Part shown: piece after piece, positions 1,500-33,317 of the stretch
Layout: each line of letters begins with the position of its first letter
Position numbering within the stretch: the stretch's first letter is position 1
DNA from: Candidatus Magasanikiibacteriota bacterium
GTDB lineage: Bacteria > Patescibacteriota > Patescibacteriia > Magasanikbacterales > UBA922
Direction of reading: 5' to 3'
DNA: 64,000 bases
Assembly: GCA_003510435.1 (NCBI GenBank)
Contig: DOMK01000013.1
Span: 12,135 to 76,134, forward strand
The notes under the pieces: model-generated
Told to the model about the DNA's origin: nothing
What the model saw: only the letters and a program-made list of their open reading frames with translations
The model's database searches: none
Position numbers and translations under genes: made by a program

Positions 1500-1528
1500 T
1501 TGTCTAAATAGTAAAAATAGTATATAAT
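1500..1528 (+). promoter_or_regulatory. sigma70-like promoter upstream of clpC (TTGTCT-N17-TATAAT)
   Basis: ttgtct, a 17-nt spacer, then tataat about 95 nt upstream of the clpC ATG. The leader contains a long imperfect hairpin built from caaca(c) words. Confidence 0.5.
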
Positions 1529-1624
1529 ATAGACATAAAAAATACAACAACACAGCAACACAAAAACACCCAACTTAGCCAGAAGTGTTGTTCTGTTGTA
1601 CTGTTTTAATGTTTATATGTTTTT

Positions 1625-4174
1625 ATGAATCCTGAACAACTTTTGGAACGCTTTTCTACCCATCTCCGTACTGTGGTCGCCAAAGCTATGGCGATGGCCA
1701 CTTCCCTATCACATGACAAGGTCACCCCAGCTCATTTGTTTGTGGTTTTGTTAGAAGAAAAAGGCTCGATTGCCAATGAAATTTTGAGTAAGCTCAATAT
1801 TAATCCTGATTTTATTTATAAAATTTTAGATAATAAGCCAGAACTAGTAAACCAAAATATAAAAATCCAAACCGCCACTCTGCCAGAATTAAATTTGATG
1901 AGTAAAAAAATCTTAGAGAAATCCATGCTCCTAGCTTATGAGAGAAACCATACCCATATTGGCACCGAGCATTTACTCTTGGGTATGATCTATAGTACAG
2001 ACAAAGATATAAAAGATATTTTGCATAATTTTAAAATTAATATTGCTGATATTGAAGAAGAGATAGAAAATATTCTCCAGAGCACATCCAAATTCCCAGA
2101 TATTGATGACGTCTCCAATATGATGGATCAATTAGAAGGCTTAGTTGGTGGCGACAATTCTTCGGCCATGCCTCTACCCCCTGCTTCGATGAATCAACCA
2201 GAACAAAATCAAATTAGTAGACCAAAAATGAAAAGACCTAGTGTGACGGCTTTGGATCTTTTTACTAATAATCTAACTAATCCGAGTAATCAAAAAAATA
2301 TTGATCCAGTCATTGGTAGAGAAAAAGAAATTGAACGCGTAATAAATATTTTGGCCAGACGAACAAAAAATAATCCAGTGTTGATTGGCGAACCAGGTGT
2401 AGGTAAAACTGCCATTGTAGAAGGCTTGGCCAGAAGAATTACCGAAGGTGATGTACCAGATGTTTTAAAACGCAAAAAAATTCTTTCTCTTGATCTCACT
2501 TTAATGCTTGCTGGCACTATTTACCGTGGTGAATTTGAAGCTAGACTCAAACAAGTAATTGATGAAGTGACCAAATCACCAGATTGTATCCTTTTTATTG
2601 ATGAACTCCACAATATTATTGGCGCTGGCTCTAGTCAAGGTGCTATGGATGCGGCTAATATTTTGAAACCCGCCCTAGCTCGTGGTAGCCTACGCTGTAT
2701 TGGCGCGACCACGATTGATGAATACAAAAAACATGTTAGCCACGACCCTGCTCTAGAAAGACGTTTTCAAGCTATCAATGTAGAAGAACCAAGTAAAGAG
2801 GAAACTGAACAAATTTTACAAGGCATCAAAAAATATTATGAAAATTTTCATAATGTAAAAATTACTGATGAAGCTATTACTACAGCTGTAGAATTGAGTG
2901 TTAAATATATTCATGATAATTTCTTGCCTGATAAAGCGATTGATCTCTTGGATGAAGCCTCGGCCGCCATAAAAGTAAAAAATAAATTATCCAATCATGA
3001 AATCAAACGACAAAAATTATTAGATGAAATTGATCATTATAACATTCAAAAAGAAGAGAGTATTAGAACCGAAAAATTTGATGACGCCAGTGTATGGAAA
3101 AAACGCCTGGAGGGAGTTAATAAAAAATTACAATCTTTGGAAAAAATTATTAGTAAAGCCAAACAGCCACTCCGAAAAAAAGTGATGGGTGCTGATATAG
3201 CCAAAATTTTGGAAAACAAACTTAATATCCAAGCTAATATTTTATTACAAAATGAATGGGATGAACTAGAGACTTTACCAAACAGATTAAAACAAAATAT
3301 TATTGGTCAAGACGAAGCTATAGAAAAGATCGTAAAATCTTTGAAACAATCATATTTGGGACTAAAGGACAATAAAAAACCTCTGGCATCATTTGCTTTC
3401 ATTGGCCCGAGTGGAGTAGGTAAAACTGAAATGGCCAAAATTTTGGCCAAAGAACTTTATCATGATGACAAAGCTCTAATAAAACTAGACATGAGTGAAT
3501 TTTCTGAACAACATAGTACTTCTAAATTACTTGGTTCGCCGGCTGGCTATATTGGTCATAAAGAACGTAACCATTTTACTGAGGAAATTAGAAAACGACC
3601 TTATTGTGTGGTTTTGTTTGACGAGGTTGATAAAGCCCATGCTGATGTAACCAAACTCTTGTTACAAATTTTGGACGAAGGCGAACTGACTGACAGTGCA
3701 GGCAAAAAAACTCATTTCCACCATGCTCTAATTATTCTCACCACAAATTTAGGCGCAGAACTATTCAAAACCACTGGCATTGGTTTTGGTAAAGTTGAAG
3801 CTAATAGTAAAGATCGTGATAAATCAATTGTAAATAAACTAAAAGAAGACCTCTCTTCAGCTCTAATCAACCGTTTGGACAATGTAATTATTTTTAATCC
3901 TCTGACTAAAGCTGATATAAAAAATATTGTGGCTAAAAATTTTAAATTAATCAATGAAAAATTACAAACCAATAATAAATTATCTATCAAAGCTACTAAC
4001 CAAATATTATTAGATCTAAGTAAAGATAGTTTTAATGTAGAAGAAGGTGCTAGACAAGTAGAAAGAATTTTGCAGGATATTATCCAAGAAGCCGTCATTG
4101 AAATCCTAAAGAAAAAACAAAATAAACAAAATTATTCTCTAGTGAAAAAAGCTGGGAAATATAGTCTAGTATGA
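1625..4174 (+). CDS. clpC: ATP-dependent Clp protease ATP-binding subunit, ClpC type
   Basis: 849 aa. Clp N-domain, two AAA+ modules with Walker A GEPGVGKT and GPSGVGKT, and a short middle region with a UVR-like segment ([12 protein letters not shown]) typical of ClpC rather than ClpB. Confidence 0.85.
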
Positions 4175-4545
4175 ACGTCCAAAATCAATTATCAAGTGAA
4201 AAAGCCAAAGCCATTGCCTTTAAAAAAGGACAACAAATTAGTTTGAAACAACAACAGACTGGTTTGTGGCAAGAAAAATTTGATATTGATGAACAACTAG
4301 AATATTATAAAAATAAATTAATGATTAATATAGAAAATAGACAAGTAGAGATGGTAGATAATAATTTAAAAAAACTATTAAGACTGCGCGCTAGACAAAC
4401 TGCTCTTAATATATCAGAAATAATAGGAGAAGATAAAGAAAAAAATACCCAACTTTTAAAAGAAGAAACCGAAAAATTTTACAGGGATTGTTTACTTCTC
4501 GGTATTACTTTAGATAAAATAATTGGCGAAGACAATATTATATGA
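4171..4545 (+). CDS. hypothetical coiled-coil protein, translationally coupled to clpC
   Basis: 124-aa ORF whose ATG overlaps the clpC stop (ATGA) and whose stop overlaps the next ATG. K/E-rich and helical-looking; no recognisable domain. Confidence 0.4.
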   Translation: MNVQNQLSSEKAKAIAFKKGQQISLKQQQTGLWQEKFDIDEQLEYYKNKLMINIENRQVEMVDNNLKKLLRLRARQTALNISEIIGEDKEKNTQLLKEETEKFYRDCLLLGITLDKIIGEDNII

Positions 4546-6395
4546 AAACTCCTCCGCCCAATTCAGACCAAAAAAGACAAATTATGGGAGCAATCCTTAG
4601 TCAGATTGTGGCCAAACAAATACTCCCGGCTTTATTAAAAGAAGAATTTGCTAAACATCTAATAAACCCAGCAAATTTTCTACCAAATTCAATAAATGAA
4701 ACTCTGGCCGTAGATCCAGCTCAATATATCAGCCCTGTCCTTTCTAATATAGGCATGCAAAACCCAAACATAAATCCTAAAGACATTGTTGGTAATTTTG
4801 GATCAAATAATTCTAGTTTACAACCATCAACCACAGCTGATTCAACTATTCCAAACCAAGGTGGTAATACTGGAACTTCAACTCCAGATACCACACCACA
4901 GGCAGATGCTGACCAAAATGGATCTCCTGCTAATAAAAATGGTCAATCAAAAAATGATTCAGACCAACCACAGGCAGATGCAGATGCAGATAAAGACAAA
5001 GAAAATCCTGATGACGATGATAAAAAAAATGAAGCCAAAAATCCAGAAGCAACGACTGATTTAAATAATCTTGATACGCCAGCTGATAAAGCTGTTAATA
5101 CAGATCAACCGACTGGTTCTGGTCAAAATCAAAATGTACCTGGATCAACCACCCAGCCTGGACAACAAGTTGGTCCTGGTGGTGTGGTAACCAATCCAAC
5201 TCAAGCAGGAGCACCTGGACAAAATACTCCTGGGAGTAATACACCAAATTCACCAACCACACCAGGAGCTAATGCTCAACCTGGTATGAATCCAAATGTT
5301 AGTAATCCAGATACAAAAGATGATAATGCAGATGCAGGCAAAGATGAAAATATTGATGAGGACGATAAAAAACCAGATGAAGACAAACTAGATGGTGAGG
5401 GTGATGATAAAAAAGAACCTGATGATAAAGATAAAGACGGTGACAAAAAAAATGATGAGAATGATAAAAATAGTGGTGACAAAACAAAACCAGATGAAAT
5501 ACCCTCAGGTTATTACGACCCTTATGCCAATTCAAAAGATGGTACGCATGCGGGATATTTTAATCCTGATGCGTCAAAAGAACAAACACCAGTCATAGAT
5601 GAAACAGGAAGAGACAGAGGAGCTACCATAACCCCAGAAAAAAAACCAGGGGATGGTTATTACGACCCTTATGCCAATTCAAAAGATGGTACGCATGCGG
5701 GATATTTTAATCCTGATGCGTCAAAAGAGGACGAAGATAGGGATGAAAGCAGTGACTCTCCATTTGGTGTTGAAAACCAAGACTTTGGCGGTATGAATAT
5801 GCCAAATCAACAAGAAGACCAGGAATCAGATGACGATACTCCACAAGATGGTAAAAGTGAACAACAGCCAGATAAAAAATCAGATTCTGATAATGACGAA
5901 CAAAAAGAAAAAAAACAAAAAATGGAAAACGAAAAAGGAAGCATGACTCAATTTATAAATCAAAATATAATAAACAGAACAAAGATAAACGGCCTAGAAC
6001 AAGAGATAAAAAATTTAGAAAACCAAGCTAATGATCTAAATAAAAAAAATGATGATTTAGATAAAAAAATTAAAGAATTGGAACCAGAATCAATTAAAAA
6101 ATTAAGGGGCATACAAACATTTATGGGAGGTTGTAGTTGTTGTTCTTGTATTTTTTTACCCATATCTCTTATTTCCTCAATATCAACAGCCTTAATTGAA
6201 TTATTTATCCAAATTAAAAAAAAGAAAGAACATGAAAATAAAGCTGAGATTGAAAAACTTGAAGAAGAAAAAAAAGCAAATACTAAAAATCTTAAACAAA
6301 TTAATAAACAAATTAATAAAATAGCTAGGGATATATACAATTTGCGAAACACAGGAATGATGAAAGGAATGGCCAATAATATGTTCAGACACTAG
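4542..6395 (+). CDS. hypothetical acidic low-complexity protein with an internal exact repeat and a C-terminal Cys-rich hydrophobic segment
   Basis: 617 aa, rich in P/T/G/D/K/N. The 25-aa unit GYYDPYANSKDGTHAGYFNPDASKE occurs twice. A C-terminal coiled coil flanks GGCSCCSCIFLPISLISSISTALIELF. Confidence 0.45.
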   Translation: MKTPPPNSDQKRQIMGAILSQIVAKQILPALLKEEFAKHLINPANFLPNSINETLAVDPAQYISPVLSNIGMQNPNINPKDIVGNFGSNNSSLQPSTTADSTIPNQGGNTGTSTPDTTPQADADQNGSPANKNGQSKNDSDQPQADADADKDKENPDDDDKKNEAKNPEATTDLNNLDTPADKAVNTDQPTGSGQNQNVPGSTTQPGQQVGPGGVVTNPTQAGAPGQNTPGSNTPNSPTTPGANAQPGMNPNVSNPDTKDDNADAGKDENIDEDDKKPDEDKLDGEGDDKKEPDDKDKDGDKKNDENDKNSGDKTKPDEIPSGYYDPYANSKDGTHAGYFNPDASKEQTPVIDETGRDRGATITPEKKPGDGYYDPYANSKDGTHAGYFNPDASKEDEDRDESSDSPFGVENQDFGGMNMPNQQEDQESDDDTPQDGKSEQQPDKKSDSDNDEQKEKKQKMENEKGSMTQFINQNIINRTKINGLEQEIKNLENQANDLNKKNDDLDKKIKELEPESIKKLRGIQTFMGGCSCCSCIFLPISLISSISTALIELFIQIKKKKEHENKAEIEKLEEEKKANTKNLKQINKQINKIARDIYNLRNTGMMKGMANNMFRH

Positions 6396-6440
6396 AAAAA
6401 TTTCTAAATAAATAATATAATATACTTATATTTATAATAT

Positions 6441-7664
6441 ATGGATAAAAAGAAAATCATTTATATTCTGGCATTTATAGTCATAGCTGGTTTATTGGCT
6501 TTTTTAATTTACCGAATATTTTTTTATACAAAACCAGAAACATTAATTATTGGTCCTGATGGTACAATTACTACTACTGGACAAACTGGCCTATTTCCTC
6601 AATCCGGTGAAGGCAAACCTAGTACCACTACTTCTGGAACTTCGGGACAAAAACTACCAACCGCTGGCACAATCAGTCCTACTAGCAAAAGACCTGGTGA
6701 AAGAACCGTAGAAAAGACGGTTGATATTCCAATAATCAGTGCTACCAAAGATATTTCTGGCAATGCTAGATTTTATAATGATGTGGATGGTAAATTTTAT
6801 CGCCTTAATAGTGACGGTAAAGTAGAAAGTCTAAGTGATGAGGTGTTTTATAATGTAAAAAATGTCACTTGGTCACCAGTCAATGAAGACGCTATTATAG
6901 AATATCCTGATGGTGCCAATATTTATTATAATTTTAAAACCAAGGAACAAGTCACCTTACCCAAACACTGGGAAGATTTTTCTTTTTCTGATACTGGAGA
7001 CAAAATTGCTTCCAAAAGTGTTGGCTTATCCCCAGAAAATCAATGGATAATTACTGCTAATCCAGATGGAAAAAATATAAAATTAATTGAACCAATGGGA
7101 GAAAATGCTGCCAAAGTAAATGTTGATTGGTCTCCAAACAAACAAATTGTGGCCACTTCCAGAACTGGTGATGCTCTTGGGGCTGACAGAGAAGAAATCC
7201 TAATGGTTGGCTTAAATGGCGAAAATTTTAAATCCATTGTCGTAGAAGGACGAGGTATACAATCTCAATGGTCAACCGAGGGTAAAAAACTTTTGTATAG
7301 TGTTTATAGCGAACGCAGTGATTTCAAACCAGAATTATGGATAGTAAATTCTTATGGTGATAAAATTGGTTCCGGTAGAAGTTATCTAAATTTGAATACT
7401 TGGGCAGAAAAATGTACTTTCCAAGATGAAAGATTTGTCTATTGTGCTGTTCCTACTCAATTGGAACGCGGAGCTGGTTTTGCCCCGGCTCTTTATGATA
7501 GCACTCCAGATCAAATTTATCGGGTTGACTTGCAGACTGGTATAAAAACCGAAATTCCCGTATCCGAGGATCGGACCATAACTAATATGTTTATTAGCTC
7601 AGATGGAAAAACACTGCAATTCACTGATGAAAATGAGGGTGGTTTATTTAGTATAGATTTATAA
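6441..7664 (+). CDS. membrane-anchored protein with a putative beta-propeller (TolB/WD40-like) ectodomain
   Basis: 407 aa. N-terminal TM helix, a T/S/G-rich linker, then repeated DG-containing beta-strand motifs. The fold assignment is a guess. Confidence 0.4.
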   Translation: MDKKKIIYILAFIVIAGLLAFLIYRIFFYTKPETLIIGPDGTITTTGQTGLFPQSGEGKPSTTTSGTSGQKLPTAGTISPTSKRPGERTVEKTVDIPIISATKDISGNARFYNDVDGKFYRLNSDGKVESLSDEVFYNVKNVTWSPVNEDAIIEYPDGANIYYNFKTKEQVTLPKHWEDFSFSDTGDKIASKSVGLSPENQWIITANPDGKNIKLIEPMGENAAKVNVDWSPNKQIVATSRTGDALGADREEILMVGLNGENFKSIVVEGRGIQSQWSTEGKKLLYSVYSERSDFKPELWIVNSYGDKIGSGRSYLNLNTWAEKCTFQDERFVYCAVPTQLERGAGFAPALYDSTPDQIYRVDLQTGIKTEIPVSEDRTITNMFISSDGKTLQFTDENEGGLFSIDL

Positions 7665-7667
7665 AAT

Positions 7668-8318
7668 ATGTATAAAAATAAATACGCCATATTAATAATC
7701 ATACCCGCCATTCTAATTGCCGGCTTTGCTTTATATGTCCGAATTTTACAATACGAACCCCTATTCCCTAGTTTAAAAGAAATAGAAGCTCAGGAAGATA
7801 AATTAAAAACCAATATAATTCCAATTTACAAAGAAGACCCTGTTGTTGGAAATAAAAAAGCCAAAAATCAAATTATTATGTTTGAAGATTTTGGTTGCGA
7901 AGCCTGTGAATACCAAATGGAATTATTAAAAGAACTACTAGTCAAGCATCCAGACAGTCTAAATATAATTTGGAAAGGTTTATCTGTTAGCACCTTCCCT
8001 TACTCCACAGAAATGGCTCATGCTTATGCTTACTGTGCCAATGAACAAAATAAATTTTCTCAATTTAAGGATCAAGCCTTTGCTAATTTTGACAACCTCT
8101 CTACAGATACGCTAAATAATATAAGCAAGACCATTGCTTTAAATGAAACTAAGACCAGTCAATGCATTACTAGCAATCAATGGAAATTATATATGAATAA
8201 AAATACTGCCTTGGCCCAACTCCTAAATATTCAATCTGTGCCAACTATTTTTATAAATAATGTCCAAACGAAAAATCCTCAGACATTGGAAGAATGGGAA
8301 GCAATTTTAAATCTATAA
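7668..8318 (+). CDS. DsbA-like thiol-disulfide oxidoreductase (thioredoxin fold)
   Basis: 216 aa. N-terminal TM helix, a CxxC active site (FGCEACEY), and a size and arrangement typical of DsbA/BdbD-like proteins. Confidence 0.6.
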   Translation: MYKNKYAILIIIPAILIAGFALYVRILQYEPLFPSLKEIEAQEDKLKTNIIPIYKEDPVVGNKKAKNQIIMFEDFGCEACEYQMELLKELLVKHPDSLNIIWKGLSVSTFPYSTEMAHAYAYCANEQNKFSQFKDQAFANFDNLSTDTLNNISKTIALNETKTSQCITSNQWKLYMNKNTALAQLLNIQSVPTIFINNVQTKNPQTLEEWEAILNL

Positions 8319-8336
8319 AAATTCGCGATAAGTTAT

Positions 8337-9533
8337 ATGCTTAAAAAAATATTTTTTACTCTAACTGTTTTTTCCTTTATTGCACTTAGTTGTTTTTTGG
8401 TACCAACCCAAACAAAAGCCCGCGAATTAATGGGGGGATTATTGGAATCTAGTGAAATAGAAACCATTTTAAAAGAAAATCAGCCAAATCTACAAATCAG
8501 AATTCCTGGTATAAAATTCACTGATCCAGCAGAATTAGAAAAATTACAAATAGAAGAAAACGGTATAAACTATTTACAAATCCCCTATTTAGGAGAATAT
8601 ATTGTCGCTGTTTACAAATATGGTATTATTATTATTGGAGTTTTAGCTCTTGTAATGATAATTGATTCTGGTTTGCAATGGGTGCTCTCTGCCGGCAACC
8701 AAGAAAAAATAACCAAAGCCAAAACAGGATTAAGTAATGCTATTTTTGGTTTAATTATTGCTTTACTTTCATATACTATTCTCTATGTTATTAATCCTAA
8801 TTTGGTTGAATTTAAAAGCTTAAAAATAGCCTATGTAGAACGACGAGAAGTGGATTCTCTTACCAATGATTTAGTACAAAGCGATAATGACAAACCTCCT
8901 CAATTAGAAATATTTGAAGATATAGATCCATCACCTCTACCCAATACCAGTGGATTAAATTATGGTTTTAATAATGTTCCTTATTATTACCAATGTTTCA
9001 GTGCCAATAGTCCATGGGGTAATGAAATATATGGTGAACAAAGTGATTGTTCTAATTTTTGTCATGGCGCCTGTGGTCCCACATCATTTGCTATGGTTTT
9101 TCGTTTTTATGAATTAGAAGTTGATCCAAGACATATAGCAAAAGTTGGCGTCTCGTCAGGAGCTAGAAAATGTGGAACACCTGGTGGTACAAACGGTAAT
9201 GTATTAATTACCGCTCTAAAAAAAGAAACTCCATTTAGTGAATTTAAAATTGATTGGATAACTGGAAATGACGCTCATGATAAAGCTTGGGAAATTTTAA
9301 AATCAGGTCAACCACTTATTCAATCTGGTGAACATATCGGCTTTACTAGCAAAGGTACCATAAAAACATACCGCGGACACTATATAGTTTTAACCGGCAT
9401 TGACAATATTGGCGGTCAAGAAGTCATCAGGGTTAATGATCCCGCTAGAATAAGCCCAACCCAAGGTATTGTTTATATGACACGGGAACAATTTAACGCT
9501 GCCCCTAGAAGCATGATTTATATACATAAATAA
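8337..9533 (+). CDS. secreted/membrane protein: signal peptide, a two-TM pilin-like hairpin, and a C-terminal C39-like (papain-fold) cysteine peptidase domain
   Basis: 398 aa. Signal-like N-terminus. A two-TM hairpin with a short polar loop (GIIIIGVLALVMII...SAGNQEKITKAKTG...IFGLIIALLSYTILYV) resembles TrbC/VirB2-type pilins. The C-terminal motif GACGPTSFAMV followed by a distal His resembles Peptidase_C39-like catalytic Cys/His. Confidence 0.5.
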   Translation: MLKKIFFTLTVFSFIALSCFLVPTQTKARELMGGLLESSEIETILKENQPNLQIRIPGIKFTDPAELEKLQIEENGINYLQIPYLGEYIVAVYKYGIIIIGVLALVMIIDSGLQWVLSAGNQEKITKAKTGLSNAIFGLIIALLSYTILYVINPNLVEFKSLKIAYVERREVDSLTNDLVQSDNDKPPQLEIFEDIDPSPLPNTSGLNYGFNNVPYYYQCFSANSPWGNEIYGEQSDCSNFCHGACGPTSFAMVFRFYELEVDPRHIAKVGVSSGARKCGTPGGTNGNVLITALKKETPFSEFKIDWITGNDAHDKAWEILKSGQPLIQSGEHIGFTSKGTIKTYRGHYIVLTGIDNIGGQEVIRVNDPARISPTQGIVYMTREQFNAAPRSMIYIHK

Positions 9534-9535
9534 AA

Positions 9536-12136
9536 CTACTCCAAATGTACTCCATCTTCCCAATCCCTCACTTTACTTACAAGTGAAGGATTTTTTTTGA
9601 AGTCAATTCCTCGTGCCAAATCACGTGATAATTTTATCAAATCCATATCCTGCATGGTGGCGAGTTTAAAAGGTGGTAGACCACTCTGGCTTGTGCCATA
9701 AACTTCACCCGGGCCACGAGTTTGGAGATCATACTCAGCAATTTTAAAACCATCAGTATTTTGAGAAAAAAATTGCAATCGTGCCAAAGATTTTTCATTG
9801 TCAGTGTCAGTAAATAAAAAACAATATGATTGATGTAAAGCTCTACCCACCCGACCACGGAATTGATGGAGCTGGGCCAAGCCAAACCTGTCTGCGCCTT
9901 CTATCATCATCACGACAGCATTAGGAATATTTACTCCCACTTCTACGACTGATGTGGAAACTAGTATATCTATTTTTCCACTCGCAAAATCAGCCATAGT
10001 GTTTTCTTTTTCATTTGGCTTTAATTTGCCATGTAAATAACCAACACGTAAATCTTTAAATATCTCCTCAGATAATTTTTTATATTCACTCATTACACTT
10101 TTTTTATCTAAGGAGTAAGGAATAAGGAGTAAGGAATTATTATCAACAAAATCATCATCACTTTTTCCTTTTTCCTTTTTCCTTTTTCCTTCATCAATCA
10201 ACGGACATATCACAAACACCTGTCTCCCCTGTTTAACTTGTGAACGAATAAAATCATAGGCCTTGTTTCTATTTTCACTATCTACCACTCTAGTATCAAT
10301 TGCTTTTCTACCCACTGGCATTTCATTAATAATAGATAAATCCAAATCACCATACAAAGTAAGAGCAAAGGATCTGGGAATCGGGGTCGCAGTCATAGAC
10401 AACAAGTGAGGCCTCATTGCTGACTGACGCAGACTAGACGCAGACTCATTATTACCACGGGCAATATCATAAACAATTCTTTGAATATCCACGCTCTCGT
10501 GAGAAAAATTTATTAACAAAGCCAACTTATACAGTGATCCTTTTAAATATGTCCAAACCTGTCTATTTTCTCTACTACCAACAAACGGAAGGGCTTTTAA
10601 TTCAATGATAATTTTATCTTCAACCACAAAATCTGGACGATAAATTCCTATTTTTTTATTTTCATATTTTATATCTAATACTTTTTCTTTTTCAAATTTT
10701 ATTCCTTCTTTTTTAAATTCCTCTTCCAATGCATTTTGATAAATTACTTCTTTATGTCCTAAACCTAAATTCTTTTTAACATTAAAAATACATCCTCTTA
10801 TTTTGTAAGTCAAATCTTTATATAAAAATCCACTTTTACTTTCCTTCTCCTGTTGTTCTTCCTCTTCTGCGTCGTCTGCGTAAGTCTGCGTAAGTCTGCG
10901 TCGTTGTTCTACTCCGAATCGATGTTGTTCATCTATAATTACTAAACCTAAATTTTTAAACTGTACTTTTTCTGATAATAGAGCGTGGGTTCCAATAATC
11001 AAGTTTATTTGCCCAGTTTTAATTTGTTTAAGTAAATCTTTTTTAATCAAAATACTAGAAGATCGGTGATCACTGATCACTGATTGAGAACGTGTCAACA
11101 GCGCTATTTTAACTTTATCTTCCAACAGCTTTGTCAGCGAATCAAAATGTTGCACGGCCAATATCTCGGTCGGCGCCATTATCACTGCTTGATAATTATT
11201 CAAAACTGTATTATAAAGCGCCATCGCTGCCACGACAGTTTTTCCACTTCCCACATCACCTTCTAACAATCGATTCATAGGTTCATTTTTTTCCAAATCA
11301 CGCAAAATATCCCAAGCCGACACTTTTTGGGCTTTGGTAAGCTGAAAAGGTAAAGAACTAACAAACTCTTTTATTTTTTCTTGCTGAAATTTTATTTCCC
11401 AAGCTTTTGATCGTTTCAAAGATTGACGAATCATTTCCGCGCGTAATTGTAAAATAAATAGTTCTCCAAATTTCAAACGCTTTTTTGCTTGATTTAAGTC
11501 TATTTCATCTATTGGAAAATGGATACCACGCACCGCTTCGGCCAGATAAATCAAATCTGCTTTTTCTAAAATTTCATCTGGTATCCATTCTTTTAGTAAA
11601 TCATGAGTCAAATAAATTATTTGACTAACTAAAAACCTTAATTGTTTATTAGTAACTCCAGTCGTGAGATGATAAATTGGGACAATCCTGGCAGTATGGG
11701 TAGTGTTTTTTTCTCCCAAAGCTTTTTGTTTGGTTTCTTTTTCATAAGACGGCGATGCCATTTGTTTGCCTAGTTTTCCAATTGATAATTTGCCTGATAG
11801 ATAAACTGTATCACCAGGTTTAAAATTCCGAGTAATAAAAGGCTGGCCAAACCAAACAATTTTTAATTTTCCAGTTTCATCATAAACAATCGCCTCTGTC
11901 ATAATTGTTCGTCTTTTAAAAATCCGCCGATTGGAAATAATCTCTATTTTCGCTTTAATTGTCACTTCTTCCCCTACTTCCAAATCAGCAATATTCTTGG
12001 TACTACTATAATCTTGATAGCGAAAAGGTAAATAAAACAACAAATCCTGAATAGTATTTATACCAAGATTTTTTAAATGCCTTTCCATCTTTTTGGCAAT
12101 ATGGTTGATTTGTCCAATAAGTGTGTCTAATTGCAT
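9536..12136 (-). CDS. recG: ATP-dependent DNA helicase RecG carrying an in-frame PD-(D/E)XK (GxxExxY-type) domain insertion
   Basis: 866 aa. Walker A GSGKT, DEQH box, MTATPIPR motif III and an N-terminal wedge region. About 165 extra aa lie between DEQH and motif III. Confidence 0.85.
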   Translation of the reverse strand: MQLDTLIGQINHIAKKMERHLKNLGINTIQDLLFYLPFRYQDYSSTKNIADLEVGEEVTIKAKIEIISNRRIFKRRTIMTEAIVYDETGKLKIVWFGQPFITRNFKPGDTVYLSGKLSIGKLGKQMASPSYEKETKQKALGEKNTTHTARIVPIYHLTTGVTNKQLRFLVSQIIYLTHDLLKEWIPDEILEKADLIYLAEAVRGIHFPIDEIDLNQAKKRLKFGELFILQLRAEMIRQSLKRSKAWEIKFQQEKIKEFVSSLPFQLTKAQKVSAWDILRDLEKNEPMNRLLEGDVGSGKTVVAAMALYNTVLNNYQAVIMAPTEILAVQHFDSLTKLLEDKVKIALLTRSQSVISDHRSSSILIKKDLLKQIKTGQINLIIGTHALLSEKVQFKNLGLVIIDEQHRFGVEQRRRLTQTYADDAEEEEQQEKESKSGFLYKDLTYKIRGCIFNVKKNLGLGHKEVIYQNALEEEFKKEGIKFEKEKVLDIKYENKKIGIYRPDFVVEDKIIIELKALPFVGSRENRQVWTYLKGSLYKLALLINFSHESVDIQRIVYDIARGNNESASSLRQSAMRPHLLSMTATPIPRSFALTLYGDLDLSIINEMPVGRKAIDTRVVDSENRNKAYDFIRSQVKQGRQVFVICPLIDEGKRKKEKGKSDDDFVDNNSLLLIPYSLDKKSVMSEYKKLSEEIFKDLRVGYLHGKLKPNEKENTMADFASGKIDILVSTSVVEVGVNIPNAVVMMIEGADRFGLAQLHQFRGRVGRALHQSYCFLFTDTDNEKSLARLQFFSQNTDGFKIAEYDLQTRGPGEVYGTSQSGLPPFKLATMQDMDLIKLSRDLARGIDFKKNPSLVSKVRDWEDGVHLE

Positions 12137-16245: not shown

Positions 16246-16647
16246 ATGAATAATACTGGAGAAAAATTAATTTATCCGGATTTATCTTATAAAATAAATG
16301 GAATCCTCTTTGCCACCCATAATGAATTAGGCCCCTATGCCAGAGAAAAACAAATTGGTGATGTAATAGAAAAATTATTAAAAGAACAAGAAATACCCTA
16401 CCTCAGAGAATGTCAAATTGGCAATAGCGGAAATGTATTGGACTTTATTATAGATAATAAAATTATTCTTGAACTAAAATCAAAACGTTTTATAATAAGA
16501 GCAGATTATGAACAAACACAAAGGTATCTGCAAGCCACCCAGCTTAAACTTGCGATCTTAGTCAATTTTAGGACACAATATCTTAAACCAATCAGGATAG
16601 TAAAAATAGATACTCAATTTAAAGAAAAATTCATAAAAAAATATTAG
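16246..16647 (+). CDS. PD-(D/E)XK nuclease-like protein of the GxxExxY type; paralogue of the recG insert
   Basis: 133 aa with a D..ELK core (DFIIDNKIILELK). It aligns along its length with the domain inserted in RecG (for example YKINGILF~YKIRGCIF and LAILVNF~LALLINF). It is bracketed by inverted repeats. Confidence 0.55.
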   Translation: MNNTGEKLIYPDLSYKINGILFATHNELGPYAREKQIGDVIEKLLKEQEIPYLRECQIGNSGNVLDFIIDNKIILELKSKRFIIRADYEQTQRYLQATQLKLAILVNFRTQYLKPIRIVKIDTQFKEKFIKKY

Positions 16648-17384: not shown

Positions 17385-18464
17385 ATGCGCAAAGAAATCC
17401 TCCTCTCCTACTTCCCAAAAATTACTTCCCGACGCTACCAGCAATTGGTGGCCGTTTTTGATAATTTAGATAATGTTTGGAATGCAAATAGAGATGAAAT
17501 TATAAAAACTGGCTGGAAAGAAGACATTGTTGATCAATTTTTTATTTGGAAAGAAAAACTGGATGAAAACAAAATAGAACGAATTATAGAACAAGAGGAA
17601 ATATATTGCATAACAAAAGATGATGATAATTATCCAGCTTTGCTTAAAGAAATTTATGATCCCCCATTTTGTTTATTTGTCCGCGGTGAATTCAAGCCTG
17701 ATGACTTTTCTTTGGCCGTGGTTGGTACCAGAAAATTTTCTCCCTATGGTAAACAAGTGACAGGAGAATTAGTTTCTGAATTGGCTCACCAAGGCATCAC
17801 TATTATTAGTGGATTAGCCATTGGCATTGATTGCCTAGCTCATGAAGCTACTCTCAAAGCTGGTGGAAAAACAATTGCTGTGCTTGGCAGTGGTATAAAT
17901 AAACAACATATTTATCCTGGACAAAATAAAGATCTAGCCGAAAGAATAATCAAGTCTGGTGGAGCTCTGATATCAGAATATCCCCCGGGAACTCTGCCTT
18001 CAAAATTTACTTTTCCCCGTCGAAACCGCATTGTGGCTGGCATGTCCTTAGGAACACTGGTAATTGAAGCCCCAGAAGGCTCTGGAGCACTAATTACGGC
18101 TCAATGTTCACTTGATAATGACCGCGAAGTCTTTTCTGTACCACAAAATATAAATAGTGCCAATTCCTCAGGCCCAAATGAACTAATCAAAAATGGCGCC
18201 CAATTGGTCACCAAAGCTAGTGATATTTTAGACGCTCTAAATTTACAAGATGTAAAAAAGTATATTTCTAACCAAGCCATCATTCCTGATTCTCCTGTAG
18301 AAGCCAAAATATTGGACAACCTAACCCGCGAACCAATCCATATTGATGAACTAACAAAAAAATGTGAACTTGACAGTTCTAGTACAAATGCTACACTTAT
18401 ACTTATGGAAATGAAAGGTAAAGTGAGGAATCTGGGTGGAATGATGTACGTTTTAGGGCGATAA
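17385..18464 (+). CDS. dprA: DNA-processing protein DprA (Smf)
   Basis: 359 aa. Rossmann-like DprA core (GLAIGIDCLAHEATLKAGGKTIAVLGSGI) and a C-terminal winged-helix-like tail. Confidence 0.85.
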   Translation: MRKEILLSYFPKITSRRYQQLVAVFDNLDNVWNANRDEIIKTGWKEDIVDQFFIWKEKLDENKIERIIEQEEIYCITKDDDNYPALLKEIYDPPFCLFVRGEFKPDDFSLAVVGTRKFSPYGKQVTGELVSELAHQGITIISGLAIGIDCLAHEATLKAGGKTIAVLGSGINKQHIYPGQNKDLAERIIKSGGALISEYPPGTLPSKFTFPRRNRIVAGMSLGTLVIEAPEGSGALITAQCSLDNDREVFSVPQNINSANSSGPNELIKNGAQLVTKASDILDALNLQDVKKYISNQAIIPDSPVEAKILDNLTREPIHIDELTKKCELDSSSTNATLILMEMKGKVRNLGGMMYVLGR

Positions 18465-30912: not shown

Positions 30913-31608
30913 TTATACTTTATTTATCATGATATCACTAAAATTATCTCCCTGATTCAATACAACAGTTTTTTGTTTTACCAATTCCAATAAAGCCAAA
31001 AAAACCACGATCACCTCTGTCTTATTCTTACTATCATTTAATATTTGAGAAAAACTAGCTGACTGGCCTTTTTTTAATAAGTTTCTAATCTGATCAATCT
31101 TTTCTTTTATAGTTATAGACTTATCAATATGAGTTCTTGGCAACGGCTTGGGTGGAGTAAGACGATACAACAATTTATTAATAGACTCTTTTAGACTTTC
31201 AAAACTAAAATTACTTGGTGGTAAAAACCCACTAGGTTTTTTGGGTGGTTCCACTCTAAAAACTGACCTAATACTAGAATCAAGCCATGATTTATTTAAT
31301 TTTTTACTGGCTTCTACAAAAGCTTTATATAAACGAAGTTGCTCTTCCAAACTTGGACCTTCATCTTCTTCCACTCCAAATTGAGGCAACAAAAGACGAG
31401 ATTTCAAAAACAACAATTTAGTGGCTACTACCAAAAAATCCGCTAAATCTTCAGGTTTTTTCTCTTCAATTTTGTCCAAATGACGAAGATATTGCTCGGT
31501 CACTTGGGATAAAGCCAGCTCAGAAATATTCAATTTTTCATCATCAATCAAACCTAAAAGCAAGTCTAGCGGTCCTTCAAATTGTTCCAATTTAAAACTA
31601 GTATTCAT
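30913..31608 (-). CDS. scpA: segregation and condensation protein A (kleisin)
   Basis: 231 aa with the N-terminal FEGPLDLLL motif typical of ScpA. Confidence 0.8.
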   Translation of the reverse strand: MNTSFKLEQFEGPLDLLLGLIDDEKLNISELALSQVTEQYLRHLDKIEEKKPEDLADFLVVATKLLFLKSRLLLPQFGVEEDEGPSLEEQLRLYKAFVEASKKLNKSWLDSSIRSVFRVEPPKKPSGFLPPSNFSFESLKESINKLLYRLTPPKPLPRTHIDKSITIKEKIDQIRNLLKKGQSASFSQILNDSKNKTEVIVVFLALLELVKQKTVVLNQGDNFSDIMINKV

Positions 31609-33317
31609 AATTTTGGTTCCAAAATAACATAATCTTTATTTTCAAACTTTTTTACAAAATATTCTTCCGAAAACAGCTTTTTTGGGATATCAATCACGGC
31701 TTCCCTTATTTCATTGGGGAAATTATCTAAATTGAAAAACAAAGAATAATTTTCTCCATTTTTAAACAAAATTAATAAATTTACTTGACCAAATGGAGTG
31801 TCCACTATTTTACCATAAAAATCATTTTCTGTCTTTAGCAAAGATAAATCTTTTAAATAATAAAAACGTGAAGAAAAATTGGCTGCGGGGTGAGAATTGT
31901 GTTGGTTAAAATAAATAAAATCACTAAATGGTAAGAAGGCGTGCAACTCCGGTATGCCTGATTGTAAGATTGTTAACTTGTTAATATCTGAATAATTTTG
32001 TCCTAAAAAATCTATAATTTCTTTAGCTTCTCTACGCACCATAGCTGAACGTGTTTTAACTGCCAAAACATCTCTATTATCAACAAATACACCAAATATT
32101 AATTGTGTTGCTAATACTAAAATCCCAATTAAAGCCAAACTTTTTTGCCAAGCTAGATTAGGATACTTGTTTTTCAACCATATCCACAATTGGGCAATTC
32201 CATAAGCGGCAGATAAAGCCAAGATAGTATGATTAAAAAAATAAAAACCTTTTGATTCTTGTAAAGGTGAGGCAAAGAAAAATATTGTTACCAGACCCAT
32301 GATCTGCCAAATGTATGAAGCGACAAACAAACTTAGCAAAATTCGTATATAAAACCTTTGTCGATAAATAATCAAACTCACAAAACCAATTAAGCAGATT
32401 AAACCGACCAAATTAAATTGCAACAATGGGACTTCGGTACTTAACCAGTCTAAAGTAAGAAAGCCTAATTGCCAATTCTCTGTTCCAAACATGCTATAAC
32501 TTTTAGCCAAAGGTAACCAAAATGGTAAAGCAAATAATAATGTAAAAACACCAATAATTAACAAGCTACCGTAATCTTTTAATTTAACCCTATTACCAAA
32601 TAAATTAAATAAACTAATACCAATCGCTGCCAAAAAAAACCAAAAATAAAATAACATAAACAATATTCCACCCGTAATACCAAATACCAACCAACCTTTC
32701 CAATTCATTCCTTTTTTTAATTCATTTAACAAAAATATAGTCCACAAAATAACTAAGCTAGCACTGACTAATTCATATGGCTTAGTAATAGTGACGTCCC
32801 AACTAATCAAAACAAACAAAAATATTGTGCCCAAAAACCAAATCAGTGGTTCTAAACTATTTTCGCCTTCCATTTTTCTTTTTACCCAATACCATTTTTG
32901 TAATAAATAAAATATAGCTGGATAAACCAAAATTGTGCTAAAACTAGCTATTTTTGCTATTTGCACGCCATTCAAATTAATAACCCTGCCAAGCAAACCA
33001 AATAACCAAAACCATAAAGGTGGATAAAAAGGTGGTAAACTGGTATAAGCAAAATCTGATAAACAAGAACCATGAGCAAACATTTCGTACATAGCCGCGA
33101 TCGTAATCTCATCAGCTTTTAACCCCCACAACATTAGAGCTGTATCTTTGACTAAAAAATAATAAGCTAGCGCTGAAGTAACACTCATTAAAATTATAAA
33201 AAATAATGATTTCCATTTTTTGTATATTCCTATTATTCCAAAAATAACAAACACAAAAAAACATAGCTTTACCAAAACTATGTCTTGTAAATTGGCAATA
33301 GAAAAAATATAATCCAT
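31605..33317 (-). CDS. large polytopic membrane protein (function unknown, glycosyltransferase-like topology)
   Basis: 570 aa with about 12 or more TM helices. No motif recognised. Confidence 0.35.
   Translation of the reverse strand: MDYIFSIANLQDIVLVKLCFFVFVIFGIIGIYKKWKSLFFIILMSVTSALAYYFLVKDTALMLWGLKADEITIAAMYEMFAHGSCLSDFAYTSLPPFYPPLWFWLFGLLGRVINLNGVQIAKIASFSTILVYPAIFYLLQKWYWVKRKMEGENSLEPLIWFLGTIFLFVLISWDVTITKPYELVSASLVILWTIFLLNELKKGMNWKGWLVFGITGGILFMLFYFWFFLAAIGISLFNLFGNRVKLKDYGSLLIIGVFTLLFALPFWLPLAKSYSMFGTENWQLGFLTLDWLSTEVPLLQFNLVGLICLIGFVSLIIYRQRFYIRILLSLFVASYIWQIMGLVTIFFFASPLQESKGFYFFNHTILALSAAYGIAQLWIWLKNKYPNLAWQKSLALIGILVLATQLIFGVFVDNRDVLAVKTRSAMVRREAKEIIDFLGQNYSDINKLTILQSGIPELHAFLPFSDFIYFNQHNSHPAANFSSRFYYLKDLSLLKTENDFYGKIVDTPFGQVNLLILFKNGENYSLFFNLDNFPNEIREAVIDIPKKLFSEEYFVKKFENKDYVILEPKL

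What the first reader, a model, noticed from the sequence alone, without database searches (positions are those of the whole stretch)
4171..9533. clpC is translationally coupled to a cluster of secreted or membrane proteins of unknown function
The clpC stop overlaps the ATG of a 124-aa coiled-coil ORF (ATGA). That ORF's stop overlaps the ATG of a 617-aa acidic repeat protein. After short gaps come a TM-anchored beta-propeller-like protein, a DsbA-like oxidoreductase, and a protein combining a VirB2/TrbC-like two-TM hairpin with a C39-like cysteine peptidase domain. All are on the same strand with a likely single promoter at 1500-1528.

An unfoldase linked to envelope or surface proteins, a disulfide catalyst and a peptidase suggests a dedicated export, processing or quality-control module. 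In an episymbiotic CPR-type cell this could mean a surface or attachment structure. The function is unknown and the gene order is not one I recognise from characterised systems.
Basis: inference. Interest (0 to 1): 0.6.

Follow-up and report, generated by a model that had tools for sequence, protein, structure and literature searches.

The report
Detached type IV secretion accessory genes behind clpC
The five unknown genes packed behind clpC in this ultra-small (Patescibacteria) bacterium are most likely the cell-surface accessory part of its type IV secretion system, so their link to ClpC looks like a lineage-specific rearrangement rather than a dedicated ClpC export machine.

Summary
clpC (1625-4174) overlaps a 124-aa ORF by ATGA, and that ORF overlaps a 617-aa acidic protein by ATGA. 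A TM-anchored beta-propeller, a DsbA-like oxidoreductase and a VirB2-like pilin hairpin fused to a C39-like cysteine peptidase follow on the same strand.

The order clpC-(A)-B-propeller-dsbA-pilin protein(s)-radA recurs in about 70 species-level Magasanikbacteria genomes, with median gaps of 2-28 nt.

In more distant relatives (class ABY1), the same cassette sits directly behind prgI/virB3-traC-virB4 and a TM-anchored ~185-aa protein (31 of 51 informative loci), with no clpC in front. Where clpC does precede it, the T4SS core sometimes lies just beyond recG. Magasanikbacteria-labelled genomes keep a separate T4SS core.

At the syntenic position the pilin module carries interchangeable cell-wall hydrolase heads (C39-like, amidase, VanY/M15, SLT, CHAP and others).

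Best reading: a surface-side T4SS accessory module split from its core and inserted into a clpC(-radA) operon. A ClpC-specific function is not supported. Mechanism is inferred from gene context and domains only. This is a new variant of a known kind, of moderate interest.

The parts
1500..1528 (+). Promoter-like site (TTGTCT-17-TATAAT) in the only sizeable intergenic region upstream of clpC
   Evidence: It is a 10/12 match, but such matches are not enriched over shuffles, so this is a candidate only.
1625..4174 (+). clpC: class I Clp/Hsp100 unfoldase, 849 aa, with an IGF ClpP-docking loop at aa 719-721. It is the first gene of the same-strand run.
4171..4545 (+). A (124 aa): small cytoplasmic helical protein with no TM segment. 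Its ATG overlaps the clpC stop (ATGA). Ala14 and Cys107 are invariant.
   Evidence: The family was detected in 24 of the 84 Magasanikbacteria-type loci. A weak A-like ORF follows u181 in some T4SS-type loci.
4542..6395 (+). B (617 aa). The N-terminal region is long, acidic and low in complexity, with no signal peptide, and carries two exact 25-aa repeats (5508-5582 and 5655-5729). The C-terminal module is coiled coil, a 32-aa hydrophobic segment (6120-6215, beginning CSCCSC) and a basic coiled-coil tail.
   Evidence: The C-terminal module defines a family found at this position in 69-72 of 80 relatives and in none of about 1,120 other locus proteins.
6393..6421 (+). Second promoter-like site (TAGAAA-17-TATAAT) in the 45-nt gap between B and C407
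   Evidence: Candidate only.
6441..7664 (+). C407: membrane-anchored beta-propeller. The TM helix is aa 3-28 (6447-6524), the disordered linker aa 36-73 and the propeller about aa 88-407 (6702-7661). Cys325 and Cys335 are invariant (7413-7415 and 7443-7445).
   Evidence: It is 45-62% identical across the order, as conserved as ClpC. Homologues lie next to virB4-u181 in other lineages.
7668..8318 (+). DsbA/BdbD-like thiol-disulfide oxidoreductase with an N-terminal membrane anchor. The CxxC motif is CEAC (7896-7907).
   Evidence: It follows C407 in 80 of 84 Magasanikbacteria-type loci and in 12 of 23 T4SS-type loci.
8337..9533 (+). Pilin-module protein with a cysteine-peptidase head. The signal peptide is aa 1-28. 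The VirB2-like helical hairpin is aa 84-152 (8586-8792). The disordered linker is aa 170-207. The C39_2 papain-like domain is aa 213-398 (8973-9530), with Gln219, Cys246 (9072-9074), His348 and Asp368.
   Evidence: The proteins at this position in relatives carry other cell-wall hydrolase heads.
9536..12136 (-). recG, convergent, with its stop 2 nt from the pilin-C39 stop. It marks the 3' end of the run. In most relatives radA lies between the two genes, but radA is absent from the whole window.

Best explanation
The genes after clpC (A, B, the TM-anchored beta-propeller C407, the DsbA/BdbD-like oxidoreductase and the pilin-module/C39 protein) form the envelope-side accessory cassette of the monoderm-type T4SS of ABY1-class Patescibacteria.

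In many related lineages the cassette is contiguous with the T4SS core: prgI/virB3, traC-like, virB4 and a TM-anchored ~185-aa protein I call u181. In Magasanikbacteria it has been separated from that core, which sits elsewhere with comF. There it lies inside a clpC(-radA) operon and is co-transcribed, and at its 5' end translationally coupled, with clpC.

Proposed working (inferred):
- The last protein is exported by its signal peptide and held in the membrane, or built into a pilus-like polymer, by its VirB2-like two-helix hairpin.
- Its flexible linker presents a papain-fold cysteine peptidase outside the cell. The peptidase cuts cell-wall peptides, which is the role VirB1-type hydrolases play in other T4SSs. 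The target could be the cell's own wall, to let the apparatus through, or the host's wall.
- The membrane-anchored DsbA-like enzyme forms the disulfides of these Cys-bearing exported proteins, including the invariant Cys325/Cys335 pair of the propeller.
- The propeller is a membrane-tethered scaffold or receptor.
- B is a cytoplasm-facing membrane component.
- ClpC contributes co-expression, not a dedicated step.
For: Shown:
1. The ORFs, overlaps and domains are as described.
2. The order clpC-(A)-B-C407-dsbA-pilin protein(s)-radA | recG(-) recurs across 84 loci of species-level genomes. C407 occurs in 84, dsbA in 80, clpC in 72, the pilin protein in 70 and radA in 65. Median intergenic gaps are 2-28 nt.
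3. L092 reads PrgI, TraC-like, VirB4, two TM proteins, a C407 homologue (31% identity over 404 aa, E 7e-63) and a pilin-SLT fusion.
4. L091 reads VirB4, u181, a B-like protein, a pilin protein, a C407 homologue (42% identity), dsbA, pilin-C39 and radA.
5. Among 80 metagenome loci anchored on the L091 C407, 31 of 51 informative ones have prgI-traC-virB4-u181 directly upstream on the same strand. Eleven have clpC upstream. In four of those eleven the T4SS core also lies in the same locus: convergent beyond recG in three (L138, L146, L153), and as prgI-traC on the same strand about 5 kb past radA in L107. C407 appears once in each of these four loci.
6. Magasanikbacteria-labelled MAGs carry a separate core: VirB6-like (weak match), PrgI, TraC-like, VirB4, u181-like and ComF, with no cassette beside it.
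7. At the syntenic position, 81 proteins share the pilin module (PF18895 in 45) but carry different heads: C39_2 15, Amidase_2 11, VanY 8, SLT 8, M15_4 6, GDSL 5, M15 3, CHAP 2, and NlpC/P60, M23 and GH18 one each.
8. The AF2 models show a TM helix plus propeller, and a signal helix plus helical hairpin plus papain fold.

Literature:
- In class ABY1, T4SS loci commonly include comF, recG and radA. VirB1 homologues are mostly not found near virB4 in CPR, and other hydrolases may fill that role (PMC12102498).
- The T4SS and its pilin array are essential for epibiotic growth in a Saccharibacterium (PMC10633639).
Against: - No T4SS core gene lies from 10 kb upstream to about 54 kb downstream of the cassette in this organism's contig. 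I could not confirm that this genome has a virB4.
- The two locus sets were each chosen by similarity to one query, so the 31/51 and 72/84 fractions describe clades, not unbiased frequencies. Which arrangement is ancestral is unknown.
- The whole region is collinear within Magasanikbacteria, so adjacency there is weak evidence on its own.
- Hydrolase heads are common in the clpC-type loci but rare in the T4SS-type loci (7 of 36; most of those heads are Cys-rich and unassigned).
- The C39_2 head only matches proteases weakly by fold (best E 1.5e-3), so its substrate is unknown.
- The propeller fold is generic (TM-score about 0.5).
- Homology of A and B to their positional equivalents in T4SS-type loci is only suggestive or unproven.
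Confidence: 0.6

Rival explanations
1. ClpC-dedicated module. ClpC, with A as adaptor and B as membrane tether or substrate, powers export, processing or quality control of the downstream envelope proteins.
For: ATGA overlaps couple clpC to A and A to B. clpC directly precedes the cassette in 72 of 84 Magasanikbacteria-type loci, with a median gap of 6 nt. B has a long, probably cytoplasmic, disordered acidic region that could serve as an unfoldase handle. The neighbourhood also holds other membrane-proteostasis genes: RseP, LemA and an HtpX-like M48 peptidase.
Against: The same cassette follows virB4-u181 with no clpC in front in 31 of 51 informative loci. In five of those loci clpC lies several kb away on the other strand. 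ClpC is a cytoplasmic partner of ClpP. The downstream proteins carry their own signal peptides or TM anchors and act outside the membrane. clpC-radA linkage exists in Bacillus without any such cassette (Kruger et al. 1997, cited in PMC4786428; PMC10633939). A matches no known adaptor.
Confidence: 0.1
2. Autonomous cell-wall remodelling module. In Magasanikbacteria the cassette works without any T4SS, as a membrane-anchored autolysin with its oxidoreductase and a propeller regulator, serving growth or division of the cell's own wall.
For: In clpC-type loci about three quarters of the pilin-module proteins carry recognised peptidoglycan hydrolase domains. The cassette is physically detached from the T4SS core there. 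Other wall genes lie nearby: LytR-CpsA-Psr, a Mur ligase and an S11 carboxypeptidase.
Against: The anchor is a VirB2/TrbC-type pilin module, not a usual autolysin anchor. C407 and the pilin proteins sit tightly packed behind virB4-u181 in many lineages. The rapid swapping of heads and the 1-2 copies per locus look more like interaction or arms-race proteins than housekeeping autolysins.
Confidence: 0.2
3. DNA-uptake or recombination device. The T4SS plus this cassette imports DNA, by analogy with ComB of Helicobacter, and is co-regulated with radA, recG, comF and dprA.
For: radA follows the cassette in 65 of 84 loci, with recG convergent. comF abuts the T4SS core. dprA lies at 17385-18464 in the window. 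PMC12102498 notes the comF/recG/radA co-localisation in ABY1 and the general lack of relaxases. DsbA-type enzymes are needed for competence pseudopili in B. subtilis (my own knowledge).
Against: radA is absent from this window yet the cassette is intact. radA and recG are housekeeping genes whose linkage to clpC predates the cassette. In the one tested Saccharibacterium, the essentiality of the T4SS was separable from ComEC-dependent competence (PMC12857230).
Confidence: 0.1

Closest known systems
T4SS of Patescibacteria (MPF-FATA-like; Southlakia epibionticum SEML1_0006-0019; survey in PMC12102498)
   Same: Both have VirB2-like pilin-module proteins (PF18895), often several per locus. Relatives show contiguity with PrgI/VirB3, TraC-like and VirB4. 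Both are in monoderm cells. The ABY1 neighbourhood holds recG, radA and comF.
   Different: This window holds no VirB4, VirB3 or VirB6. The pilin modules here are fused to large heads (a peptidase here, other hydrolases in relatives). I did not find the TM-anchored propeller, the DsbA-like enzyme or the A and B proteins described as T4SS parts in the papers I could search.
VirB1-like cell-wall hydrolases of Gram-positive conjugation systems (for example PrgK and TraG, with SLT plus CHAP domains; named in PMC12102498)
   Same: Both are membrane-anchored, extracytoplasmic and modular wall hydrolases encoded with a T4SS. SLT, CHAP and NlpC/P60 heads occur among the syntenic relatives, and L092 has a pilin-SLT fusion at the end of a virB4 cluster.
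   Different: The anchor is a VirB2-type hairpin rather than a single TM helix. The head in this window is C39_2-like, with no demonstrated wall substrate. The gene is not beside virB4 here.
Bacillus subtilis clpC operon (ctsR-mcsA-mcsB-clpC-radA-disA)
   Same: In most relatives clpC and radA lie on one strand in one tightly packed run. The clpC here is a true ClpC type.
   Different: There is no ctsR or mcsA/mcsB upstream (a divergent phosphomutase gene lies there instead). Five to seven envelope genes sit between clpC and radA. radA is missing from this window.
BdbD/DsbA-type membrane-anchored thiol-disulfide oxidoreductases of monoderms (my own knowledge for BdbD)
   Same: Both have a Thioredoxin_4/DSBA fold, a CxxC motif and an N-terminal membrane anchor, and are encoded next to exported Cys-containing pilin-like proteins.
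   Different: No BdbC, DsbB or VKOR partner was identified here. The substrates are only inferred.
Modular proteins with swappable catalytic heads (phage endolysins; polymorphic toxin systems)
   Same: A conserved N-terminal delivery or anchoring module is combined with many alternative wall-degrading C-terminal domains at one genomic position.
   Different: I saw no cognate immunity gene and no phage context. The conserved module is a T4SS pilin fold.

Membership tests
ClpC (class I Clp/Hsp100 unfoldase) | Two AAA+ modules with Walker A/B motifs, plus Clp_N repeats | tested here: met
   Pfam finds AAA, AAA_2, AAA_lid_9 and Clp_N in two stretches. GPSGVGKT and the DE motifs are present.
ClpC (class I Clp/Hsp100 unfoldase) | Short middle domain, collinear with ClpC rather than ClpB | tested here: met
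   The best solved relatives are B. subtilis and S. aureus ClpC, aligned as one stretch (207-829). ClpB aligns in two pieces.
ClpC (class I Clp/Hsp100 unfoldase) | ClpP-docking (I/L/V)-G-(F/L) loop in D2 | tested here: met
   IGF lies at aa 719-721 in 'TTGIGFGK'. This is sequence evidence only.
ClpC (class I Clp/Hsp100 unfoldase) | Partner ClpP and a known adaptor (MecA or McsB) | not tested
   Only 64 kb of the genome is visible. A matches no adaptor family.
VirB2/TrbC-type T4SS pilin (PF18895, PF04956) | Signal peptide followed by two hydrophobic helices joined by a short polar loop | tested here: met
   PF18895 scores 28.6 bits against a cut-off of 26.6. The AF2 model shows helices 84-117 and 122-152 after a signal helix. 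The module is conserved in the alignment.
VirB2/TrbC-type T4SS pilin (PF18895, PF04956) | Small stand-alone subunit of roughly 70-120 aa when mature | tested here: not met
   The protein is 398 aa with a 190-aa enzyme head. Relatives are 250-850 aa.
VirB2/TrbC-type T4SS pilin (PF18895, PF04956) | Encoded in a locus with VirB4 | tested here: not met
   No virB4, prgI or traC lies in the window or 10 kb upstream. The feature is met in relatives.
VirB2/TrbC-type T4SS pilin (PF18895, PF04956) | Polymerises into an extracellular pilus | not testable with these tools
   Needs microscopy or biochemistry.
Peptidase C39 (bacteriocin-leader peptidase of ABC exporters) | Papain-like fold with Gln, Cys, His and Asp/Asn catalytic residues | tested here: met
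   PF13529 matches at 3e-11. Q219, C246, H348 and D368 are conserved. Foldseek hits are staphopain, cathepsins and the PCAT1 C39 domain, all weak.
Peptidase C39 (bacteriocin-leader peptidase of ABC exporters) | N-terminal domain of an ABC transporter | tested here: not met
   The domain is fused to a pilin module, and no ABC transporter is adjacent.
Peptidase C39 (bacteriocin-leader peptidase of ABC exporters) | Double-glycine leader substrate encoded nearby | not tested
   I ran no scan for double-glycine leader peptides in or around the locus.
VirB1-type T4SS cell-wall hydrolase (functional class) | Catalytic domain that cleaves peptidoglycan | tested here: inconclusive
   The substrate of the C39_2 head is unknown. 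Proteins at the same position in relatives carry Amidase_2, VanY/M15, SLT, CHAP, NlpC/P60, M23 and GH18 domains.
VirB1-type T4SS cell-wall hydrolase (functional class) | Encoded within a T4SS gene cluster | tested here: not met
   Not met in this window. It is met for homologues P0018 (L091) and P0026 (L092).
DsbA/BdbD thiol-disulfide oxidoreductase | Thioredoxin fold with a CxxC active site | tested here: met
   PF13462 matches at 3.5e-21 and PF01323 at 6.6e-5. CEAC lies at aa 77-80.
DsbA/BdbD thiol-disulfide oxidoreductase | Extracytoplasmic location through a signal peptide or anchor | tested here: met
   An N-terminal hydrophobic helix (YAILIIIPAILIAGFALYV) precedes the domain. This was read from the sequence; no predictor was run.
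DsbA/BdbD thiol-disulfide oxidoreductase | Re-oxidising partner (DsbB, BdbC or VKOR) | not tested
   Not looked for beyond the ORFs scanned.
TolB / PD40 beta-propeller of the Tol-Pal system | Beta-propeller fold | tested here: met
   The AF2 model has pLDDT 88. Foldseek matches propellers such as tricorn 1k32 and 3c5m at E 1e-10 to 1e-11 with TM-score about 0.5.
TolB / PD40 beta-propeller of the Tol-Pal system | TolB N-terminal domain and a Tol-Pal gene context | tested here: not met
   The NCBIfam TolB score is 16.6 bits against a cut-off of 343. The protein has a TM anchor instead of the TolB N-domain, and no tol or pal genes are nearby.
Bacillus-type clpC operon | clpC and radA in one operon | tested here: not met
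   radA is absent from the 64-kb window. It is present in this position in 65 of 84 relatives.
Bacillus-type clpC operon | ctsR and mcsA/mcsB upstream | tested here: not met
   A divergent phosphoglucomutase-family gene lies upstream, 139 nt from clpC.

The most novel reading that the evidence does not exclude
The VirB2-like modules are real pilus subunits, and their C-terminal heads are displayed on a T4SS filament. These include interchangeable peptidoglycan amidases, peptidases, carboxypeptidases and lytic transglycosylases. Magasanikbacteria and other ABY1 cells would then carry an enzymatically armed pilus that cuts into the host cell wall, matured by the DsbA-like enzyme, with head diversity tracking host wall chemistry. 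The TM-anchored propeller and the A and B proteins would be previously unrecognised structural parts of that machine.
Probability: 0.15. Interest if true: 0.8.

Novelty: new variant of a known kind. Interest (0 to 1): 0.55.

Why it matters
The T4SS is one of the few machines shown to be essential for the epibiotic life of a cultivated Patescibacterium, and its composition and function are still largely unknown (PMC10633639, PMC12857230). This analysis nominates candidate accessory parts for the large ABY1 class:
- a membrane-tethered beta-propeller as conserved as ClpC;
- a DsbA-like enzyme;
- two small cytoplasm-facing proteins;
- pilin-module proteins with swappable wall-hydrolase heads.

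The published survey reported that VirB1 homologues are mostly not found near virB4 in these bacteria, so the pilin-module proteins may supply that missing function. The analysis also shows that the striking clpC coupling is a lineage-specific operon fusion, which warns against reading function from one genome's overlaps. The hydrolase-head repertoire could be tested as a marker of host range.

Tried and rejected
- Pfam and NCBIfam found nothing for A, B or C407: only sub-threshold hits such as XhlA at 0.0029 for B and TolB at 0.0029 for C407.
- A profile of the A family against all PDB sequences gave only insignificant hits to designed helical bundles.
- Foldseek of the propeller found generic propellers with no functional clue.
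- Foldseek of the pilin-C39 model gave only weak papain-fold hits and no pilin hit, because the hairpin is too simple.
- I looked for a T4SS core in the window, among ORFs to 40 kb by Pfam and across all 64 kb by tblastn, and 10 kb upstream. None was found. One look-up was wasted on wrong coordinates.
- The B-family HMM reached only the L091/L093/L100 lineage among T4SS-type loci (E about 2e-5). hhalign of B against its positional equivalents was uninformative, so homology is not claimed.
- I considered a phage lysis cassette (XhlA-like protein plus hydrolase). I rejected it because there are no phage genes, the hit is sub-threshold, and the locus is a conserved chromosomal position.
- I considered bacteriocin processing by the C39 head. 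I rejected it as the leading idea because there is no ABC transporter and the relatives' heads are wall hydrolases.
- Literature searches for Magasanikbacteria plus ClpC, and for VirB2 plus Patescibacteria plus beta-propeller, returned nothing.
- The protein-representatives search and the third fold search were not used.

Full report
**1. What is in the sequence**

The window is AT-rich (about 35% GC). It matches a Candidatus Magasanikbacteria MAG exactly. Six ORFs run head to tail on the + strand:

| Gene | Coordinates | Length |
|---|---|---|
| clpC | 1625-4174 | 849 aa |
| A | 4171-4545 | 124 aa |
| B | 4542-6395 | 617 aa |
| C407 | 6441-7664 | 407 aa |
| dsbA-like | 7668-8318 | 216 aa |
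| pilin-C39 | 8337-9533 | 398 aa |

The clpC stop overlaps the A start as GT**ATGA**AC. The A stop overlaps the B start as AT**ATGA**AA. The later gaps are 45, 3 and 18 nt. recG converges on the run, with its stop 2 nt from the last stop.

A 10/12 promoter-like site lies at 1500-1528. Such matches are no commoner here than in shuffled sequence, and an equal one sits at 6393-6421 in the B-C407 gap. A single promoter is therefore possible but not shown.

**2. The products**

- **ClpC.** This is a true ClpC. It has Clp_N repeats, two AAA+ modules, a collinear best match to B. subtilis and S. aureus ClpC rather than ClpB, and an IGF loop.
- **A.** It has no TM segment and no family or PDB match.
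- **B.** It has no signal peptide. Its long N-terminal region is acidic and low in complexity, with two exact 25-aa repeats. One 32-aa hydrophobic segment lies about 60 aa from the C-terminus, flanked by coiled-coil-like basic sequence.
- **C407.** It models confidently (pLDDT 88) as a TM helix, a disordered linker and a beta-propeller. Only generic propellers come up as structural neighbours. Two cysteines are invariant.
- **The fifth protein.** It is a membrane-anchored Thioredoxin_4/DSBA protein with CEAC.
- **The sixth protein.** It has a signal peptide, a two-helix hairpin that passes Pfam's T4SS_pilin threshold, a disordered linker and a papain-fold C39_2 domain. Gln, Cys, His and Asp are all in place.

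**3. Conservation in close relatives**

A scan of one genome per species with a C407 alignment found relatives in 261 genomes. The best 80 are all Magasanikbacteria-type MAGs, many of them mislabelled.

Mapping and clustering the genes gives one recurrent order:

PheS(-) RseP(-) LemA M48 ... PGM(-) | clpC, (A), B, C407, dsbA, one or two pilin-module proteins, radA | recG(-) ...

| Gene | Loci of 84 |
|---|---|
| C407 | 84 |
| dsbA | 80 |
| clpC | 72 |
| pilin protein | 70 |
| radA | 65 |

Many loci are truncated, so these are lower bounds.

Median gaps between successive genes from clpC to radA are 2-28 nt. C407 is as conserved as ClpC, at 46-54% identity.

B diverges too fast for BLAST. An iterative profile from its C-terminal 170 aa nevertheless recovers 72 of 80 proteins at that position. 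The final model hits 69 of them and none of the other roughly 1,120 proteins of these loci. The A family is detectable in 24 loci. radA is absent from the whole window.

Because the whole region is collinear in this order, adjacency alone says little about function.

**4. The pilin-module position carries swappable heads**

I scanned the 81 proteins between dsbA and radA. T4SS_pilin is found in 45. The C-terminal domains differ from genome to genome:

| Head domain | Proteins |
|---|---|
| C39_2 | 15 |
| Amidase_2 | 11 |
| VanY | 8 |
| SLT | 8 |
| M15_4 | 6 |
| GDSL | 5 |
| M15 | 3 |
| CHAP | 2 |
| NlpC/P60, M23, GH18 | 1 each |

Most of these are peptidoglycan hydrolases. This is the main reason to think the C39-like head here also acts on the wall, but that remains an inference.

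**5. The turn: the cassette belongs with the T4SS in other lineages**

Contexts of more distant homologues of the last protein were decisive.

- **L092:** PrgI, TraC-like, VirB4, two TM proteins, a 391-aa protein and a pilin-SLT fusion. The 391-aa protein is a C407 homologue (31% identity over 404 aa, E 7e-63).
- **L091:** VirB4, u181 (a TM-anchored ~185-aa protein), a 134-aa B-like protein, a Cys-rich pilin-module protein, a C407 homologue (42% identity), dsbA, pilin-C39, radA and recG(-).
- **L090:** keeps clpC in front.

A metagenome scan anchored on the L091 propeller gave 80 further loci, with GC from 29 to 64%. Of the 51 with enough upstream DNA:

| Upstream of the cassette | Loci |
|---|---|
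| prgI-traC-virB4-u181, same strand | 31 |
| clpC | 11 |
| neither | 9 |

In four of the clpC-type loci the T4SS core is also in the same locus. In three (L138, L146, L153) it is convergent just beyond recG. In L107 prgI and traC lie on the same strand about 5 kb past radA. C407 appears once in each of the four. This argues for one orthologous cassette in two contexts rather than two paralogues.

Among 23 T4SS-type loci with downstream DNA, a pilin-module gene follows in 19, dsbA in 12, radA in 9 and recG(-) in 19.

Small helical ORFs and acidic-N-terminus, multi-TM proteins occupy the A and B positions behind u181. Homology to A is suggestive (hmmsearch 2.3e-5; hhalign 64%). Homology to B is unproven outside the L091/L093/L100 lineage.

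Pilin-module proteins in these loci mostly have Cys-rich heads of unknown type. Recognised hydrolase heads occur in only about 7 of 36.

**6. Where the T4SS core is in the window's own clade**

VirB4 homologues labelled Magasanikbacteria exist. They sit in clusters of a weakly VirB6-like 956-aa protein, a 584-aa protein, PrgI, TraC-like, VirB4, a u181-like protein and ComF. No cassette lies beside them as far as the contigs reach.

In this organism's own contig there is no core gene from 10 kb upstream to the end of the window. I could not show that this very genome has virB4.

**7. Literature**

The survey of Patescibacterial T4SSs states that in class ABY1 (given as Magasanikiibacteriota in the preprint) T4SS loci commonly include comF, recG and radA. 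It reports VirB2-like proteins as widespread and often in arrays. It finds VirB1 homologues mostly not near virB4, so other hydrolases may fill that role (PMC12102498). It does not mention ClpC, thioredoxin-type proteins, C39 or pilin fusions.

In Southlakia the T4SS and its pilin array are essential for epibiotic growth (PMC10633639; PMC12857230).

clpC and radA share an operon or regulon in B. subtilis (Kruger et al. 1997, listed in PMC4786428; PMC10633939).

I found nothing describing this cassette.

**8. Explanation**

*Shown.* The cassette (A)-B-propeller-(dsbA)-pilin proteins is a unit that stays together while its upstream neighbour changes. In many lineages that neighbour is the T4SS core.

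*Inferred.* It is the envelope-side accessory module of that T4SS:
- The pilin-module protein is Sec-exported and anchored or polymerised through its VirB2-like hairpin. It presents a wall-cutting enzyme, which is VirB1-like work.
- The DsbA-like enzyme oxidises the exported Cys-bearing proteins.
- The propeller is a tethered scaffold or receptor.
- A and B act on the cytoplasmic face.

In Magasanikbacteria a rearrangement put the module behind clpC, so it is co-expressed, and at its first two junctions translationally coupled, with the unfoldase. Nothing indicates that ClpC acts on it.

I give this reading a confidence of 0.6. The rivals are an autonomous autolysin module (0.2), a ClpC-dedicated module (0.1) and a DNA-uptake role (0.1). 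The last concerns what the T4SS does rather than whether the cassette belongs to it.

**9. Verdict**

This is not a new kind of system. It is a new variant and an extension of the recently described Patescibacterial T4SS, with two unexpected features: pilin modules carrying interchangeable hydrolase heads, and a conserved propeller. All functional statements rest on gene context, domain content and predicted structure. No expression or biochemical data exist.

Noticed in passing
window 9536-12136 (-), insert about 10472-10828; also window 16246-16647 (+): RecG here is 866 aa because a PD-(D/E)XK (PDDEXK_3) domain is inserted at about aa 437-555. RecG in relatives is 690-735 aa and lacks it. 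A free-standing 133-aa PDDEXK_3 gene 4 kb away is 31% identical to the insert, which suggests a mobile nuclease-like element that inserted in frame.
   Followed up: partly
window 9533-9536 and the whole window: radA, the conserved last gene of this run in 65 of 84 relatives, is missing here. The pilin-C39 stop lies 2 nt from the recG stop, and tblastn finds no radA anywhere in the 64 kb.
   Followed up: yes
window 1539-1607 (+): The clpC 5' leader can form a long stem-loop (-19.8 kcal/mol; z -2.3 against shuffles; 6 of 200 shuffles fold as well). No CtsR-type direct repeat is evident. A regulatory role is unknown.
   Followed up: partly
window 5508-5582 and 5655-5729; 6132-6149: B contains two exact copies of a 25-aa unit (GYYDPYANSKDGTHAGYFNPDASKE) separated by 24 aa. 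A CSCCSC cysteine cluster sits at the start of its only hydrophobic segment.
   Followed up: no
loci L010-L089 (record titles): Many public TPA MAG records carrying this Patescibacterial locus are titled 'uncultured Gammaproteobacteria bacterium', and one 'Methanosarcinales archaeon'. The gene content and synteny are Magasanikbacteria-like, so these labels look wrong.
   Followed up: no
L173 (10 kb upstream of the window) and L010-L090: A conserved block of membrane-proteostasis genes lies just upstream of clpC across the order: an RseP-like M50 protease, LemA and an HtpX-like M48 peptidase. In L090 LemA, M48 and clpC are on one strand with the cassette.
   Followed up: no
L050:1645-6873 and L050:6992-10657: In one relative the pilin-protein position is occupied by two giant ORFs of 1,743 and 1,222 aa. 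I did not characterise them.
   Followed up: no
window 31605-33317 (-): A 570-aa membrane protein matches the mycobacterial arabinofuranosyltransferase AftA N- and C-terminal domains (2e-14 and 5e-5). This is an unexpected glycosyltransferase type for a Patescibacterium.
   Followed up: no
L153:15219-15884 (-), L175:10894-11574, L176:7883-8626: A ComF-like phosphoribosyltransferase gene immediately follows the u181-like gene at the end of the T4SS core cluster, both in Magasanikbacteria-labelled MAGs and in L153. This matches the published note on comF near virB4 in ABY1.
   Followed up: partly
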